A DNA stretch of 64,000 bases from Escherichia coli (lineage in GTDB: Bacteria; Pseudomonadota; Gammaproteobacteria; Enterobacterales; Enterobacteriaceae): the NCBI RefSeq assembly GCF_046105845.1, contig NZ_CP151004.1. One strand, 5' to 3'. Position numbers: made by a program. Of this stretch, positions 18,001 through 24,000 are shown in pieces (within the stretch, counting starts at the first letter, position 1; each line of letters opens with the position of its first letter).

Positions 18001-21000
18001 CGCGTCAATGTCGAGACAGAAGCCCAGCAGCACGAGTCTTCACGCACCAATGGCGGCGCGCTGATCAGGACTATCAATATTCGCGTTGAGAACCCTAACC
18101 TGCATGATTTAGCCATTAAAGATGTACCGATTCTCAACGGCGACAAAATTATCTGCTCGCGTCTGAAACGAGAAGAAACCCTAAAAGTACCTTCGCCAGA
18201 TACCATTATCCAACTGGGCGATTTGCTGCATCTGGTGGGGCAGCCAGCGGATTTACATAATGCGCAACTGGTGATTGGTCAGGAGGTCGATACCTCGCTG
18301 TCCACGAAAGGCACTGATTTGCGCGTCGAGCGTGTGGTGGTCACCAATGAAAACGTGCTCGGTAAACGTATTCGCGACCTGCACTTTAAAGAACGCTATG
18401 ACGTTGTTATCTCGCGCCTGAACCGTGCCGGGGTCGAACTGGTCGCCAGTGGCGATATCAGCTTGCAGTTCGGCGATATCCTCAACCTGGTGGGGCGTCC
18501 GTCCGCAATTGATGCCGTTGCCAATGTGCTGGGGAATGCGCAGCAAAAACTGCAACAGGTTCAGATGTTGCCGGTGTTTATTGGTATCGGGCTTGGCGTA
18601 TTGTTAGGCTCTATTCCCGTCTTTGTGCCGGGATTCCCGGCCGCGTTGAAACTGGGGCTGGCGGGCGGTCCGCTGATTATGGCGTTGATCCTCGGGCGTA
18701 TCGGCAGTATCGGTAAGCTGTACTGGTTTATGCCGCCAAGTGCCAACCTCGCGCTGCGGGAGCTGGGGATCGTGCTGTTCCTCTCGGTCGTTGGTCTGAA
18801 ATCTGGTGGGGATTTTGTGAATACCCTGGTCAATGGCGAAGGGCTAAGCTGGATTGGATATGGTGCCCTGATCACCGCCGTTCCGCTGATTACTGTTGGT
18901 ATTCTGGCGCGGATGTTAGCCAAAATGAATTACCTGACCATGTGCGGGATGCTGGCTGGCTCCATGACCGATCCTCCGGCGCTGGCGTTTGCTAATAATC
19001 TTCATCCAACGAGCGGTGCGGCGGCGCTCTCTTACGCCACTGTCTATCCGTTGGTGATGTTCCTGCGCATTATCACCCCCCAATTACTGGCGGTGCTCTT
19101 CTGGAGTATCGGTTAACTCTTTTCCGGGTGGAGTCGCCGTAAATGGTACTCCACCTGGTATTCGTTGGCATTTCTGAACATCACTGAATAATTCAAAAAC
19201 TCCCCGCTCTCGCTATATGACAACGAGGTGATCCGCAGCAGTGGCGTGTGTTCCGCTACCTTCATTTGCCGCGCCAGCAGTCTATCGGCGAGCACCGGCG
19301 TCAGGCTTTCATAATTACCGCCAATCAGAATCCCGCACTCTTGTTCAATATATTCAAACTTCGACCCTTCCAGATGTTGCAGCGATAGGTTGCGGAACAG
19401 TTTTACCGGCATATAGCTGTCTTCCAGCATCAGCGGTTTCCCTTCCACAAAACGAACGCGACGGGAGAAGTAGATCTGCTCGTTGATTTGAATCCGTAAC
19501 TGGCTGGCAATGGCCGGAGGCGCAGGCATGATTTCAAAAATCAGCACCTGGCTGGTGACCGTTTTTCCCTGGCGTTTTAACACCTCCACCAGCCCGGTCA
19601 GGCTGGCGGTTTGATGCAATACATCTTTGCGCACCAGGTAAGTACCGCTACCGTGGCGGCGGACCACCAGCCCCCACGCCACCAGAAGGTCAATGGCTTT
19701 ACGGATGGTCATCCGCGATACCGCAAACTCTTCCGCCAGCTTTTTTTCACCGGGAAGAAGGCTGTTTAGCGTGAAATCTGCGGAATTAAGTCGAATTCTT
19801 AACCGCTCCGCAATGCTTTTGTAGATCATCTCTAGATCTCTTTTTTGCCTGCAAGCCCGGGTAATGCGCCCACAAGTTCTACTTAATCGATTGAAAAAAC
19901 ATCTTTTTTTTAAAGATGTGTTCGATGCTGTGTACCAGTGCTCACAGATGTCTACTTTTTTGCGAAAACGTAGATCTCTACCGCCCAACGAAAAGCATGA
20001 AAGCGATCACGAATCCCACTGGGTCGTCATGTTCTGCCGATCGCATCTTCCTATCCTCGCTCCAGGCCTGCCGCATAACCAATCAGGCTTCCTACTTACA
20101 GAATTGAGAAAAGAGGATGTGGAAATGCTCAGTCAAATTCAACGCTTTGGCGGCGCGATGTTCACGCCAGTGCTGCTGTTTCCCTTCGCCGGGATTGTGG
20201 TGGGTCTTGCCATCTTGCTGCAAAACCCGATGTTTGTCGGGGAATCACTGACCGATCCAAACAGTTTGTTCGCGCAAATCGTACACATTATTGAAGAGGG
20301 CGGTTGGACGGTATTCCGTAATATGCCGCTGATTTTTGCTGTCGGTTTACCCATTGGCCTTGCTAAGCAAGCGCAGGGGCGTGCTTGTCTGGCGGTGATG
20401 GTGAGTTTCCTGACCTGGAACTATTTCATCAACGCGATGGGAATGACCTGGGGAAGCTACTTCGGCGTCGATTTCACTCAGGACGCGGTGGCAGGTAGCG
20501 GTCTGACAATGATGGCGGGAATTAAAACCCTCGATACCAGCATTATCGGCGCAATTATCATTTCCGGCATTGTGACGGCGCTGCATAACCGTCTGTTCGA
20601 TAAAAAACTGCCGGTTTTTCTCGGCATTTTCCAGGGGACGTCTTATGTGGTGATTATCGCCTTCCTGGTGATGATCCCCTGTGCCTGGCTGACATTGCTC
20701 GGCTGGCCAAAAGTACAAATGGGGATTGAATCTCTGCAAGCGTTCCTGCGTTCGGCGGGTGCGCTTGGGGTGTGGGTTTACACCTTCCTCGAACGTATTC
20801 TGATCCCAACCGGTTTACACCACTTCATCTACGGACCGTTTATCTTTGGTCCGGCAGCTGTTGAAGGCGGCATTCAGATGTACTGGGCGCAGCATCTGCA
20901 AGAGTTCAGTTTGAGCGCCGAGCCGCTGAAATCGTTGTTCCCGGAAGGCGGTTTTGCCCTGCACGGTAACTCAAAAATTTTTGGTGCCGTGGGCATTTCT

Positions 21001-24000
21001 TTAGCGATGTACTTCACTGCCGCACCGGAAAATCGGGTAAAAGTGGCGGGCTTGCTGATTCCCGCAACCTTAACCGCCATGCTGGTGGGAATTACCGAAC
21101 CGCTGGAATTTACCTTCCTGTTCATTTCACCGTTGCTGTTTGCGGTACACGCCGTGCTGGCGGCCTCAATGTCGACCGTAATGTATCTCTTTGGTGTGGT
21201 GGGCAACATGGGCGGAGGTTTGATTGACCAGGTTTTACCGCAAAACTGGATCCCGATGTTCAGCAACCACGCGGATATGATGCTGACCCAAATCGCCATT
21301 GGGTTGTGCTTTACCCTGCTGTACTTCGTGGTTTTCCGCACCCTGATTCTGCAATTCAACATGTGCACGCCGGGACGTGAAGATGCGGAAGTGAAACTCT
21401 ACTCAAAAGCCGAATACAAAGCCTCGCGAGGCCAAACCACCGCGGCAGAGCCAAAAAAAGAGCTGGATCAGGCAGCTGGTATCCTGCAAGCCCTGGGCGG
21501 GGTCGGCAATATCTCCAGCATCAACAATTGCGCGACGCGTCTACGGATTGCACTGCATGACATGTCACAAACGCTGGATGACGAAGTCTTTAAAAAGCTG
21601 GGAGCGCACGGCGTCTTCCGTAGTGGCGATGCCATTCAGGTGATCATTGGTCTGCATGTATCCCAGCTGCGTGAACAGCTCGATAGCTTAATTAATTCTC
21701 ATCAATCAGCAGAAAATGTTGCCATTACGGAGGCAGTATAATGACCAAATTCTCAGTGGTTGTCGCAGGCGGTGGAAGCACCTTTACGCCAGGCATCGTG
21801 TTGATGCTCCTGGCGAATCAGGACCGTTTCCCGCTTCGTGCACTGAAATTTTATGATAACGATGGCGCGCGGCAGGAAGTCATTGCTGAAGCCTGTAAAG
21901 TCATCCTAAAAGAGAAAGCGCCGGACATTGCGTTTAGTTACACCACCGATCCTGAAGTGGCATTCAGCGACGTTGATTTTGTCATGGCGCACATCCGCGT
22001 CGGCAAATACCCGATGCGCGAACTGGATGAAAAAATCCCGCTGCGCCACGGCGTTGTTGGTCAGGAAACTTGCGGACCCGGCGGAATAGCGTACGGCATG
22101 CGTTCCATTGGCGGCGTCCTGGAACTGGTGGATTATATGGAAAAATATTCACCAAATGCCTGGATGCTCAACTACTCCAACCCGGCAGCCATTGTCGCAG
22201 AAGCCACGCGTCGTCTGCGCCCGAATGCGAAAATCCTCAACATCTGTGACATGCCAATCGGTATTGAAAGCCGGATGGCGCAAATTGTTGGGCTGCAAGA
22301 TCGCAAACAGATGCGCGTGCGCTACTACGGCCTGAACCACTTTGGCTGGTGGACATCAATTGAAGATTTGCAGGGCAACGACCTGATGCCCCAGCTGCGG
22401 CAATATGTCTCTAAGCACGGTTATGTTCCACCGCAGCAAGATACACATACTGAAGCGAGCTGGAACGACACCTATGCAAAAGCGCGGGATGTCCAGGCAC
22501 TGGACCCGGATACATTGCCGAACACCTATCTGAAATATTATCTCTTCCCGGATTATGTCGTTCAGCATTCCAACCCTGAACATACCCGCGCGAATGAGGT
22601 GATGGAACATCGCGAGAAACAGGTTTTCGATGCTTGCCGCGCCATTACGGCGGCAGGAAATTCAGCGGCGGGCAAGCTGGAAATTGACGAACATGCGTCA
22701 TACATCGTCGATCTTGCGGCGGCGATTGCCTTCAACACTCAGGAGCGGATGTTGCTGATTGTGCCTAACAACGGGGCAATCCATAACTTTGATGATGAAG
22801 CGATGGTCGAGATCCCGTGTCTGGTCGGGCACAACGGACCAGAACCACTGGTGGTCGGCGATATCCCGCAGTTTCAGAAAGGGTTAATGAGTCAGCAAGT
22901 GGCGGTGGAAAAACTGGTCGTGGACGCCTGGGAACAGCGTTCATATCAGCACCTGTGGCAGGCGATTACGTTGTCGAAAACGGTACCGAGCGCCTCGGTC
23001 GCCAAAGCTATTCTGGATGATTTGCTGGAGGCCAACAAAGCGTACTGGCCAGAGTTACGTTAATTGTGTGGACTGGCATCCGTTGGGTGCTGGTCCGTAT
23101 TCTTTAGCACGGCTGACGGCGCATAACCAAATTTATGTTTAAAGGCTTTGCTGAAATGAAAGGAGTCGAAGAAGTTGAGCGTATCAGCGACTTCGCCAAC
23201 CGAGTTCCCTTGTTGCTTTAATAGCGATAGCGCCAGATCCAGACGTGCATCGAGGTAATATTCTTTCGGCGTCTTGCCGGTATAGCGTAAAAACAGACGA
23301 CGCAACCAGGCTTCGCTACAGGGGATCGTGGCAGCCATATCAGCTACGCTCCAGCGTTGTTGCAGACTGGCATGTAAAGTGGCAATTAGTTTTTCAATTT
23401 GCCGCCGTTGTGGATCTTTTTTACCGTCTGAGTACATAAGACAAATCCACTGATAAATAATTTTCGTCAGAAAAGCGACTGCCAGATTATTTTTTATTGC
23501 TTCTGGTGAAGTAATTAATTCAGCAACTTCGGTGAGTTCCTGATTATAAACTTCGCCATTATAAATAACGCTTTGCTGACCAACGGGAATATCCATCATA
23601 CTGGTGGGGGTAAATTCCATCCAGTACTGTTCCCAGACTAAACCTTCACAGTGATAAGAGTGAATATCCATTGGCTTTAAAAATATAATACAGTTGCCAT
23701 GCAGAGTTATTTGTTCGCCATTCTTTAAAAGAATTTTCCCACATCCTTGTACGGTATACACCGCAACCCATGAGTTGGCGATAAGCGGTTTCTTCTTGTC
23801 CCGCGGCCAGATCACCCGATAATGCTCGTCGGCGTAGGTATGCCAGAGCGAGATCAGAGAAATTCCGCTGGAGATCACATTTTCGTTAATCAATAAGGGA
23901 ATATTGTACGGAGTTTCGTTTTTTACATCCGAACTTTGCAATTTTCCATTCATTTTAATATCCCTCCGGCGAATTATGCTCACAACCTGAACTTAACAGA

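What the first reader, a model, noticed from the sequence alone, without database searches (positions are those of the whole stretch)
20125..23063. glv alpha-glucoside PTS genes intact here, although recalled as disrupted in K-12
The EIIC and EIIB portions form one continuous 538-codon ORF and the 6-phospho-alpha-glucosidase ORF is full length at 440 aa. My recollection is that K-12 carries interrupted versions of both, so this strain may retain a functional pathway.
Basis: partly seen in the sequence, partly recalled or inferred. Interest (0 to 1): 0.35.

Follow-up and report, generated by a model that had tools for sequence, protein, structure and literature searches.

The report
Intact glv alpha-glucoside sugar operon
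This E. coli strain has undamaged copies of two sugar-uptake genes that are broken in the laboratory strain K-12, but about 30% of complete E. coli genomes have the same undamaged copies, so this is an ordinary, already documented strain difference.

Summary
Window 20125-21741 is one 538-codon ORF for an alpha-glucoside PTS EIICB permease. Window 21741-23063 is a full-length 440-aa family-4 6-phospho-alpha-glucosidase, 89.7% identical to the solved chain 6DUX.

The recollection about K-12 is also correct. In MG1655 one C-to-T change (CAG to TAG, codon 369, window 21229) splits the permease gene into glvC and glvB. A 508-bp frameshifting deletion between two 8-bp repeats (GAACCACT) truncates glvG.

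The intact state is common. Among 5,426 complete E. coli genomes:
- 1,652 (30%) keep the segment that K-12 lacks, including O157:H7 and HS.
- 2,617 carry the exact K-12 deletion junction.
- About 1,150 (sampled ones include ST131 and APEC O2) lack the whole yidP-glv block.
- Only 348 carry the amber codon, and all sampled ones look like K-12 laboratory derivatives.

The intact genes are under strong purifying selection (dN/dS 0-0.08) and keep all the catalytic motifs checked, so a working pathway is likely. It is not proven. One paper reports 55 E. coli isolates and one O157:H7 isolate as palatinose-negative, so the operon may be silent or have other substrates.

K-12's versions were already called cryptic or truncated in the literature. 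Verdict: real, correctly interpreted, already known, low interest.

The parts
19113..19829 (-). yidP: GntR/HutC-type regulator (winged helix plus UTRA effector domain), transcribed divergently from the permease gene. Presumed regulator of the operon (inferred).
   Evidence: Pfam GntR and UTRA domains. RefSeq names it yidP in K-12 and other strains. It is intact here, with dN/dS 0.02-0.09. Its regulatory role was not tested.
19830..20124 (.). yidP-glvCB intergenic region, the presumed promoter/operator region.
   Evidence: No sigma-70 consensus match. One weak CRP-like match at 19931-19946, at the chance frequency for the window. TAGATCTCT occurs at 19833 and 19971. Shine-Dalgarno-like AAGAGGA lies upstream of the ATG at 20125. 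All of these are leads only.
20125..21741 (+). Uninterrupted glvCB gene: 538-aa alpha-glucoside PTS EIICB permease. EIIC domain with GITEP at residue 322, linker TPGRED at 415, EIIB domain with Cys469 in NCATRLR. No EIIA domain.
   Evidence: TIGR02005 at 959 bits against a cutoff of 607. Pfam PTS_EIIC plus PTS_EIIB only. Motif positions. The protein is 100% identical to the O157:H7 protein WP_000952127.1 despite 18 synonymous differences.
21229..21231 (+). Codon 369, CAG (Gln) here. K-12 has TAG (amber), which splits the gene into glvC and glvB.
   Evidence: Ungapped alignment to MG1655. The TAG allele is in 348 genomes and the CAG allele in 3,921.
21741..23063 (+). Full-length glvG (aglB/glvA-type) gene: 440-aa GH4 NAD+/Mn2+-dependent 6-phospho-alpha-glucosidase. 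Its start codon overlaps the glvCB stop codon by one base.
   Evidence: Pfam Glyco_hydro_4 N- and C-terminal domains. 89.7% identity to 6DUX and 73.2% to 1U8X, without gaps. GGGS 10-13, C169-D170-M-P, H200 and Y263 are conserved.
22334..22341 (+). Left copy of the 8-bp direct repeat GAACCACT, at the K-12 deletion breakpoint.
22842..22849 (+). Right copy of the 8-bp direct repeat GAACCACT, at the K-12 deletion breakpoint.
22342..22849 (+). 508-bp segment (about codons 201-370 of the glucosidase) present here and missing in K-12 and 2,616 other genomes. Its loss shifts the reading frame.
   Evidence: The segment is present in 1,652 genomes. The exact deletion junction is in 2,617 genomes.

Best explanation
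This is the undamaged, ancestral-type form of the E. coli glv operon (yidP / glvCB-glvG). It is the counterpart of the Klebsiella pneumoniae aglA-aglB alpha-glucoside system. The likely mechanism is as follows. The 538-aa EIICB permease takes up an alpha-glucoside disaccharide or glycoside and phosphorylates its glucose moiety at O-6. The phosphate travels from PEP through EI, HPr and a separately encoded EIIA (probably Crr/EIIA-Glc, because the operon has no EIIA) to Cys469 of the EIIB domain. The 440-aa family-4 glycosidase, which needs NAD+ and Mn2+, then cleaves the 6-phospho-alpha-glucoside into glucose-6-phosphate and the aglycone. YidP, a GntR/HutC-type regulator encoded divergently, probably controls expression. 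K-12's glvC/glvB split and glvG pseudogene are derived lesions: one nonsense transition and one 508-bp deletion between 8-bp repeats. The window's state is shared by about 30% of complete E. coli genomes. Shown here: gene integrity, family membership, conserved catalytic residues, the exact K-12 lesions, the population frequencies and purifying selection. Inferred: the phosphorelay partners, the substrates, regulation by YidP, and that the operon is expressed.
For: Family assignment: TIGR02005 at 959 bits (cutoff 607) and the Pfam domains. The glucosidase is 89.7% identical to 6DUX and 73.2% to 1U8X, without gaps, with Cys169, Asp170, His200 and Tyr263 conserved. The EIIB Cys motif, the GITEP motif and the linker are present. 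K-12 lesions: CAG to TAG at codon 369, a 508-bp deletion between GAACCACT repeats that shifts the frame, and the RefSeq pseudogene annotation. Population counts: locus present in 4,279 of 5,426 genomes, segment present in 1,652, deletion junction in 2,617, TAG in 348 and CAG in 3,921. The same architecture is annotated as intact CDSs in O157:H7, HS, E300010 and VCSW5. Purifying selection: the permease has 12-23 nucleotide differences from other intact alleles and no amino-acid differences from three of the four, with pairwise dN/dS 0-0.02. The glucosidase has dN/dS of 0.05-0.08. [quoted passage not shown]
Against: No experiment on this strain or on any E. coli with the intact operon was found in the searchable literature. 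The intergenic region has no sigma-70 consensus promoter and only a chance-level CRP-like match. All 55 E. coli isolates and one O157:H7 isolate in PMC9631374 were palatinose-negative on VITEK 2, although the O157:H7 genomes sampled carry the intact operon. Those isolates were not sequenced. Nearly half of the genomes carry the deletion allele and about a fifth lack the whole locus, so the pathway is dispensable in many lineages. The permease was not compared directly with K. pneumoniae AglA.
Confidence: 0.85

Rival explanations
1. The operon is intact but cryptic. The genes are structurally sound but silent under ordinary conditions, as described for the E. coli bgl, asc and chb operons, or they act on substrates other than those of Klebsiella AglAB. 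This strain would then show no alpha-glucoside phenotype without an activating mutation or an unknown inducer.
For: No promoter-like site in the intergenic region. E. coli isolates, including one O157:H7, were palatinose-negative on VITEK 2 (PMC9631374), while about 30% of genomes carry intact genes. The locus has been lost repeatedly: the 508-bp deletion, a separate roughly 370-bp deletion in the permease gene of strain Z226-5, and loss of the whole locus in ST131 and similar genomes.
Against: dN/dS of 0-0.08 in the intact alleles indicates that the proteins are used often enough to be kept by selection. VITEK is a short acidification test on a single substrate, and the isolates tested were not genotyped. 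Cryptic operons such as bgl are also conserved, so this rival overlaps the main explanation rather than excluding it.
Confidence: 0.3
2. The genes look intact but are disabled in this strain by a missense or regulatory change, making them a hidden pseudogene.
For: This strain's glucosidase has a residue combination not seen in the five comparison alleles. It differs from VCSW5 by one residue, S419A, and has Asp427 where five of the six comparison proteins have Glu. The lineage is poorly sampled: the best match over 25 kb is 99.0%.
Against: The permease protein is identical to that of O157:H7, E300010 and VCSW5. Ser419 is shared with O157:H7 and HS, and both Ser419 and Asp427 appear in the 6DUX alignment. 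All the catalytic residues checked are conserved. yidP is intact.
Confidence: 0.04
3. K-12's arrangement is the original one, and the window's fused permease gene and long glucosidase gene are secondary, produced by repair or horizontal replacement.
For: The deletion allele is the most frequent single state, at 2,617 genomes.
Against: The full-length forms match the Klebsiella and Bacillus proteins end to end without gaps. K-12's glvG runs out of frame after the junction into stop codons. The K-12 split is a single TAG inside an otherwise colinear frame, found only in 348 K-12-like genomes. In ST131, about 100 bp of the 3' end of yidP remains, so the locus predates its loss there.
Confidence: 0.01

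Closest known systems
Klebsiella pneumoniae aglA/aglB (alpha-glucoside PTS EIICB plus phospho-alpha-glucosidase; AglB structure PDB 6DUX/6DVV, organism recalled from memory)
   Same: A single-chain EIICB permease gene is followed directly by a 440-aa GH4 6-phospho-alpha-glucosidase gene. The glucosidase is 89.7% identical, without gaps, with the catalytic residues conserved. The permease meets the TIGR02005 alpha-glucoside IIBC model. PMC5309279 calls the K-12 genes homologues of aglA and aglB.
   Different: No growth, transport or enzyme data exist for the E. coli versions. In one study's E. coli isolates palatinose was negative. A Klebsiella-like table in PMC3877295 shows 98.9% positive, though the species of that table was not checked. 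The permease was not aligned directly with AglA.
E. coli K-12 glvC, glvB and glvG (b3683, b3682, b4556)
   Same: Same chromosomal locus between yidP and yidL, with 98.6% nucleotide identity and no other length difference across yidP-glvCB-glvG.
   Different: K-12 has TAG at codon 369 and a 508-bp frameshifting deletion in glvG. The window has neither.
Bacillus subtilis glvA (malA) / glvC (malP) maltose system (GlvA structure 1U8X)
   Same: A GH4 6-phospho-alpha-glucosidase 73.2% identical without gaps, working with an EIICB-type permease. When expressed in K-12, the pair confers use of isomaltose, panose and other alpha-glucosides (PMC5309279).
   Different: Gene order and regulator differ. 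From memory, B. subtilis has glvA-glvR-glvC with an RpiR-type regulator, whereas here a GntR/UTRA regulator is encoded divergently.
Cryptic sugar operons of E. coli (bgl, asc, chb/cel)
   Same: PTS permease plus phospho-glycosidase operons that are conserved yet give no phenotype in standard tests (general knowledge). The glv operon may behave in the same way.
   Different: Those are beta-glucoside systems with GH1 or GH4 beta-enzymes. Silencing of glv has not been shown.

Membership tests
Alpha-glucoside-specific PTS EIICB (TIGR02005; AglA/GlvC/MalP type) | Full-length match to the family model above its curated cutoff | tested here: met
   959.2 bits against a cutoff of 607.3; residues 2-523 cover model positions 1-524 of 524.
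Alpha-glucoside-specific PTS EIICB (TIGR02005; AglA/GlvC/MalP type) | EIIC and EIIB domains in one polypeptide, with no EIIA domain | tested here: met
   Pfam finds PTS_EIIC at 10-346 and PTS_EIIB at 453-482 and nothing else. The frame is continuous over 538 codons.
Alpha-glucoside-specific PTS EIICB (TIGR02005; AglA/GlvC/MalP type) | Phosphorylatable cysteine in the EIIB motif C-A-T-R-L-R, and the GITEP motif of glucose-family EIIC | tested here: met
   NCATRLR starts at residue 468 (Cys469) and GITEP at 322. The significance of these motifs rests on general knowledge of PtsG-family permeases.
Alpha-glucoside-specific PTS EIICB (TIGR02005; AglA/GlvC/MalP type) | PEP-dependent uptake and phosphorylation of alpha-glucosides through EI, HPr and EIIA-Glc | not testable with these tools
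   Needs transport assays. ptsHI-crr lie outside the window.
GH4 6-phospho-alpha-glucosidase (AglB/GlvA/MalH type) | GH4 N-terminal (NAD-binding) and C-terminal domains over the full length | tested here: met
   PF02056 at 6-184 and PF11975 at 195-415. End-to-end ungapped alignment to 6DUX and 1U8X.
GH4 6-phospho-alpha-glucosidase (AglB/GlvA/MalH type) | Catalytic and metal-binding residues (B. subtilis GlvA Cys171, Asp172, His202, Tyr265; roles recalled from memory) and the N-terminal GxGS nucleotide motif | tested here: met
   Cys169, Asp170, His200 and Tyr263 are identical in the window protein, 6DUX and 1U8X. GGGS at 10-13.
GH4 6-phospho-alpha-glucosidase (AglB/GlvA/MalH type) | C-D-M-P signature said to separate phospho-alpha-glucosidases from other GH4 enzymes (recalled from memory; source not retrievable) | tested here: met
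   CDMP at 169-172. The much stronger match to alpha-enzymes (919 and 752 bits) than to 6-phospho-beta-glucosidases (211 bits or less) points the same way.
GH4 6-phospho-alpha-glucosidase (AglB/GlvA/MalH type) | NAD+/Mn2+-dependent hydrolysis of 6-phospho-alpha-glucosides | not testable with these tools
   Needs an enzyme assay.
K-12-type disrupted glv alleles | Amber codon at codon 369 of the permease gene | tested here: not met
   The window has CAG and K-12 has TAG.
K-12-type disrupted glv alleles | 508-bp deletion between GAACCACT repeats in the glucosidase gene | tested here: not met
   The window holds both repeats and the 508 bp between their starts.

The most novel reading that the evidence does not exclude
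The intact operon is a working, selectively maintained trait in about a third of E. coli. It would let those lineages use dietary or plant alpha-glucosides (sucrose isomers, isomaltose, maltitol) that K-12, most strains carrying the deletion, and B2 strains such as ST131 cannot use. The three-state polymorphism (intact, 508-bp deletion, whole-locus deletion) would then mark a niche difference among lineages that standard identification panels have missed.
Probability: 0.35. Interest if true: 0.3.

Novelty: already known. Interest (0 to 1): 0.12.

Why it matters
The importance is limited. The finding is a reminder that K-12 is not representative of the species for this pathway. Metabolic models and gene-content comparisons built on K-12 annotation (glvC, glvB and a pseudogene) understate what roughly 30% of E. 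coli genomes encode. The allele counts made here (30% intact, 48% sharing one deletion junction, about 21% with the locus gone, and the amber codon confined to K-12-like genomes) give a simple genotype to test against alpha-glucoside phenotypes. The gene functions, the K-12 defects and the absence from B2 strains are all already in the literature and in the RefSeq annotation.

Tried and rejected
- **Promoter scan:** a sigma-70 promoter and terminator scan of 19700-23300 found no promoter-like site, and terminator-like sites only at the chance level.
- **CRP site:** a CRP-consensus search found one two-mismatch site in the intergenic region, but the window as a whole has 29 such matches against 27 expected, so it carries no weight.
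- **Operator candidates:** the repeats in the intergenic region (TAGATCTCT twice) are too short to interpret.
- **Primary paper:** the paper on the genetic requirements for alpha-glucoside growth in K-12 (J Biol Chem 2006, DOI 10.1074/jbc.M601183200) is not held, so its content is cited only through PMC5309279.
- **CDMP signature:** a literature search for it returned unrelated papers, so its diagnostic value rests on memory.
- **Recurrent deletion:** I considered that the 508-bp deletion might recur independently at the 8-bp repeats. All four deletion genomes compared share a nearly identical downstream haplotype (glvG 3' end plus yidL, 0-1 differences) while their upstream haplotypes differ. 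This fits one origin followed by recombination.
- **Ancestral absence in B2:** I considered that the locus might never have been present in B2. A remnant of about 100 bp of yidP in ST131 argues for a secondary deletion.
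Full report
**What is in the window.** The reported span holds two co-oriented genes on the + strand. The mechanical ORF 19864-21741 contains the real start at 20125. This ATG is preceded by AAGAGGA and is the start used by RefSeq in four other strains. It gives 538 codons. The second ORF, 21741-23063, is 440 codons, and its ATG shares one base with the preceding stop codon, an arrangement typical of translational coupling. Upstream and divergent lies yidP (19113-19829, minus strand), a GntR-family regulator with a UTRA effector domain. Downstream and convergent lies yidL (23060-23953), an AraC-family regulator, followed by yidK and yidJ. Comparison with complete genomes shows that the window begins at dnaA, at position 1 of several records.

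**What the genes are.** The 538-aa protein matches TIGR02005, 'alpha-glucoside-specific PTS transporter subunit IIBC', over the whole model at 959 bits against a cutoff of 607. It has a PTS_EIIC and a PTS_EIIB domain and no EIIA domain. It carries the GITEP motif at residue 322, the inter-domain linker TPGRED at 415, and the EIIB cysteine motif NCATRLR with Cys469. The 440-aa protein has both GH4 domains. It aligns without any gap to two solved 6-phospho-alpha-glucosidases: 89.7% identity to 6DUX (Klebsiella pneumoniae AglB, organism from memory) and 73.2% to 1U8X (Bacillus subtilis GlvA). The residues I recall as the Mn2+ ligands and catalytic acid/base of GlvA are Cys171, Asp172, His202 and Tyr265. 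They are identical here as Cys169, Asp170, His200 and Tyr263, and the N-terminal GGGS motif is present. Matches to 6-phospho-beta-glucosidases are far weaker, at 211 bits or less.

MG1655 annotates glvC (368 aa), glvB (161 aa) and a glvG pseudogene between yidP and yidL. Window 19000-22341 aligns to MG1655 without a single gap. Within the permease gene there are 19 nucleotide differences and only two codon changes: P238Q, and CAG to TAG at codon 369 (window 21229). One transition is therefore what splits K-12's gene into 'glvC' and 'glvB'. In glvG, K-12 lacks 508 bp lying between two copies of GAACCACT (window 22334-22341 and 22842-22849). The loss is not a multiple of three, and the K-12 reading frame runs into stop codons a few codons after the junction.

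**How unusual the intact state is.** Among 5,426 complete E. coli genomes, 4,279 have the locus. The other counts are:
- 1,652 genomes (30%) contain the segment that K-12 lacks.
- 2,617 genomes contain the exact K-12 deletion junction. This was found with a 46-base query built so that every 28-base seed spans the junction.
- 348 genomes have the TAG allele and 3,921 the CAG allele. These came from 55-base queries in which every seed contains the variant base.

The two pairs of numbers each add up to 4,269. Every sampled TAG genome is a K-12 derivative or looks like one (MG1655, BW2952, RR1, NEB Turbo, EC600 and similar), and all 348 are 100% identical to K-12 over the 55 bases. Genomes with the full-length glucosidase gene include O157:H7, HS and strain C122. 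Natural isolates with the deletion (E110019, N61, STEC1585) keep an uninterrupted permease gene, and RefSeq flags their glucosidase gene as a frameshifted pseudogene.

About 1,150 genomes lack the locus altogether. Those sampled include ST131 and APEC O2-211. In ST131, yidE is followed after 89 bp by yidL. About 100 bp of the 3' end of yidP remain there, so this state is a secondary deletion of roughly window 19217-23092. Touchon et al. list glvC among functions absent from all group B2 strains (PMC2617782). One genome (Z226-5) has an independent deletion of about 370 bp in the permease gene alongside an intact glucosidase gene.

**Origin of the common deletion.** In a ten-sequence alignment, the four deletion genomes are nearly identical downstream of the junction (0-1 differences across yidL) but carry three different haplotypes upstream. 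Two of these are within 0-1 differences of intact alleles. This fits a single deletion event later spread and reshuffled by recombination, rather than repeated slippage at the 8-bp repeats. The sample is small.

**Is the intact operon likely to work?** Three results say yes. First, all the family-defining motifs checked are present (above). Second, the permease protein of the window is identical in amino-acid sequence to that of O157:H7, E300010 and VCSW5 despite 12-23 nucleotide differences, with dN/dS of 0-0.02 across the pairs. The glucosidase has dN/dS of 0.05-0.08 and yidP 0.02-0.09. Third, PMC5309279 reports, citing earlier work, that the Klebsiella homologues aglA and aglB let K-12 use methyl-alpha-glucoside, isomaltose and sucrose isomers. 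[quoted passage not shown]

Some evidence points the other way. The yidP-glvCB intergenic region has no sigma-70 consensus match, and its one CRP-like match is at the chance level. In one study, 55 E. coli isolates and one O157:H7 isolate were all palatinose-negative on VITEK 2 (PMC9631374), although the O157:H7 genomes sampled have the intact genes. Those isolates were not sequenced, and the test is short and uses one substrate. Even so, it keeps open the possibility that the operon is silent in the laboratory or has a different substrate range.

**Proposed mechanism (inferred from the families).** PEP passes its phosphate through EI and HPr to a separately encoded EIIA, probably Crr because the operon has none, and then to Cys469 of the EIIB domain. 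The alpha-glucoside crosses through EIIC and is phosphorylated at O-6 of its glucose moiety. The GH4 enzyme, using NAD+ and Mn2+, releases glucose-6-phosphate and the aglycone. YidP probably represses the operon until a pathway intermediate binds its UTRA domain. None of these steps could be tested here.

**Comparison with what is known, and verdict.** This is the same locus as K-12 glvCBG without K-12's two lesions, and it is the E. coli counterpart of Klebsiella aglA-aglB. The K-12 defects, the gene functions and the absence from B2 strains are already recorded in RefSeq annotation and in the literature. The intact form is annotated as two ordinary CDSs in the five intact-glucosidase genomes read in full, and RefSeq names the product 6-phospho-alpha-glucosidase in 29 of 30 sampled genomes that hold the segment. 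One small correction to the suggested tests: arbutin is a beta-glucoside and is not an appropriate substrate for this enzyme class.

Noticed in passing
window 48157-60729 (+), repeats at 51610-58587: A 4,190-aa ORF for a giant inverse autotransporter (intimin/invasin family). It has an IAT_beta domain at residues 149-423 plus Invasin_D3 and Big_1 domains, and contains 24 tandem copies of a 291-bp (97-aa) repeat with 86% matches.
   Followed up: partly
window 19217-23092; L003 (ST131) 2018-2112: The locus has three states across E. coli: intact (1,652 genomes), K-12-type 508-bp deletion (2,617), and whole-locus deletion (about 1,150; sampled ones include ST131 and APEC O2-211). In ST131 about 100 bp of the 3' end of yidP survive and yidL is 27 bp shorter, so the absence is a secondary deletion.
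   Followed up: partly
window 21229-21231 (K-12 codon 369): K-12's amber codon replaces a Gln codon. Amber suppressors of the supE/glnV44 type insert Gln (general knowledge), so in such K-12 strains read-through would rebuild exactly the wild-type EIICB. This is an inference and was not tested.
   Followed up: no
L010 (Z226-5) 1036-2282; L004 (HS) 4711-6492: Strain Z226-5 has an independent deletion of about 370 bp in the permease gene with an intact glucosidase gene. In HS and Z226-5, yidL and the genes downstream of it are replaced by an IS200/IS605 tnpA/tnpB element placed just after the glucosidase gene.
   Followed up: partly
window 1-25000: The best match among 5,426 complete E. coli genomes is only 99.0% identical over 25 kb (VCSW5, soil/drain sediment), and the next are 98.7% or less. 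The strain therefore belongs to a sparsely sampled lineage. Window position 1 coincides with position 1 (dnaA) of several records.
   Followed up: no
window 19833-19841 and 19971-19979: TAGATCTCT occurs twice in the yidP-glvCB intergenic region, 138 bp apart. The second copy lies within the palindrome GTAGA-TC-TCTAC. These are possible YidP operator sites, but they are short and untested.
   Followed up: no
literature, PMC9631374 Table 3: VITEK 2 palatinose was negative in 55 E. coli isolates and one O157:H7 isolate, although the O157:H7 genomes sampled carry the intact glv operon. Genotype and routine phenotype may therefore disagree.
   Followed up: partly
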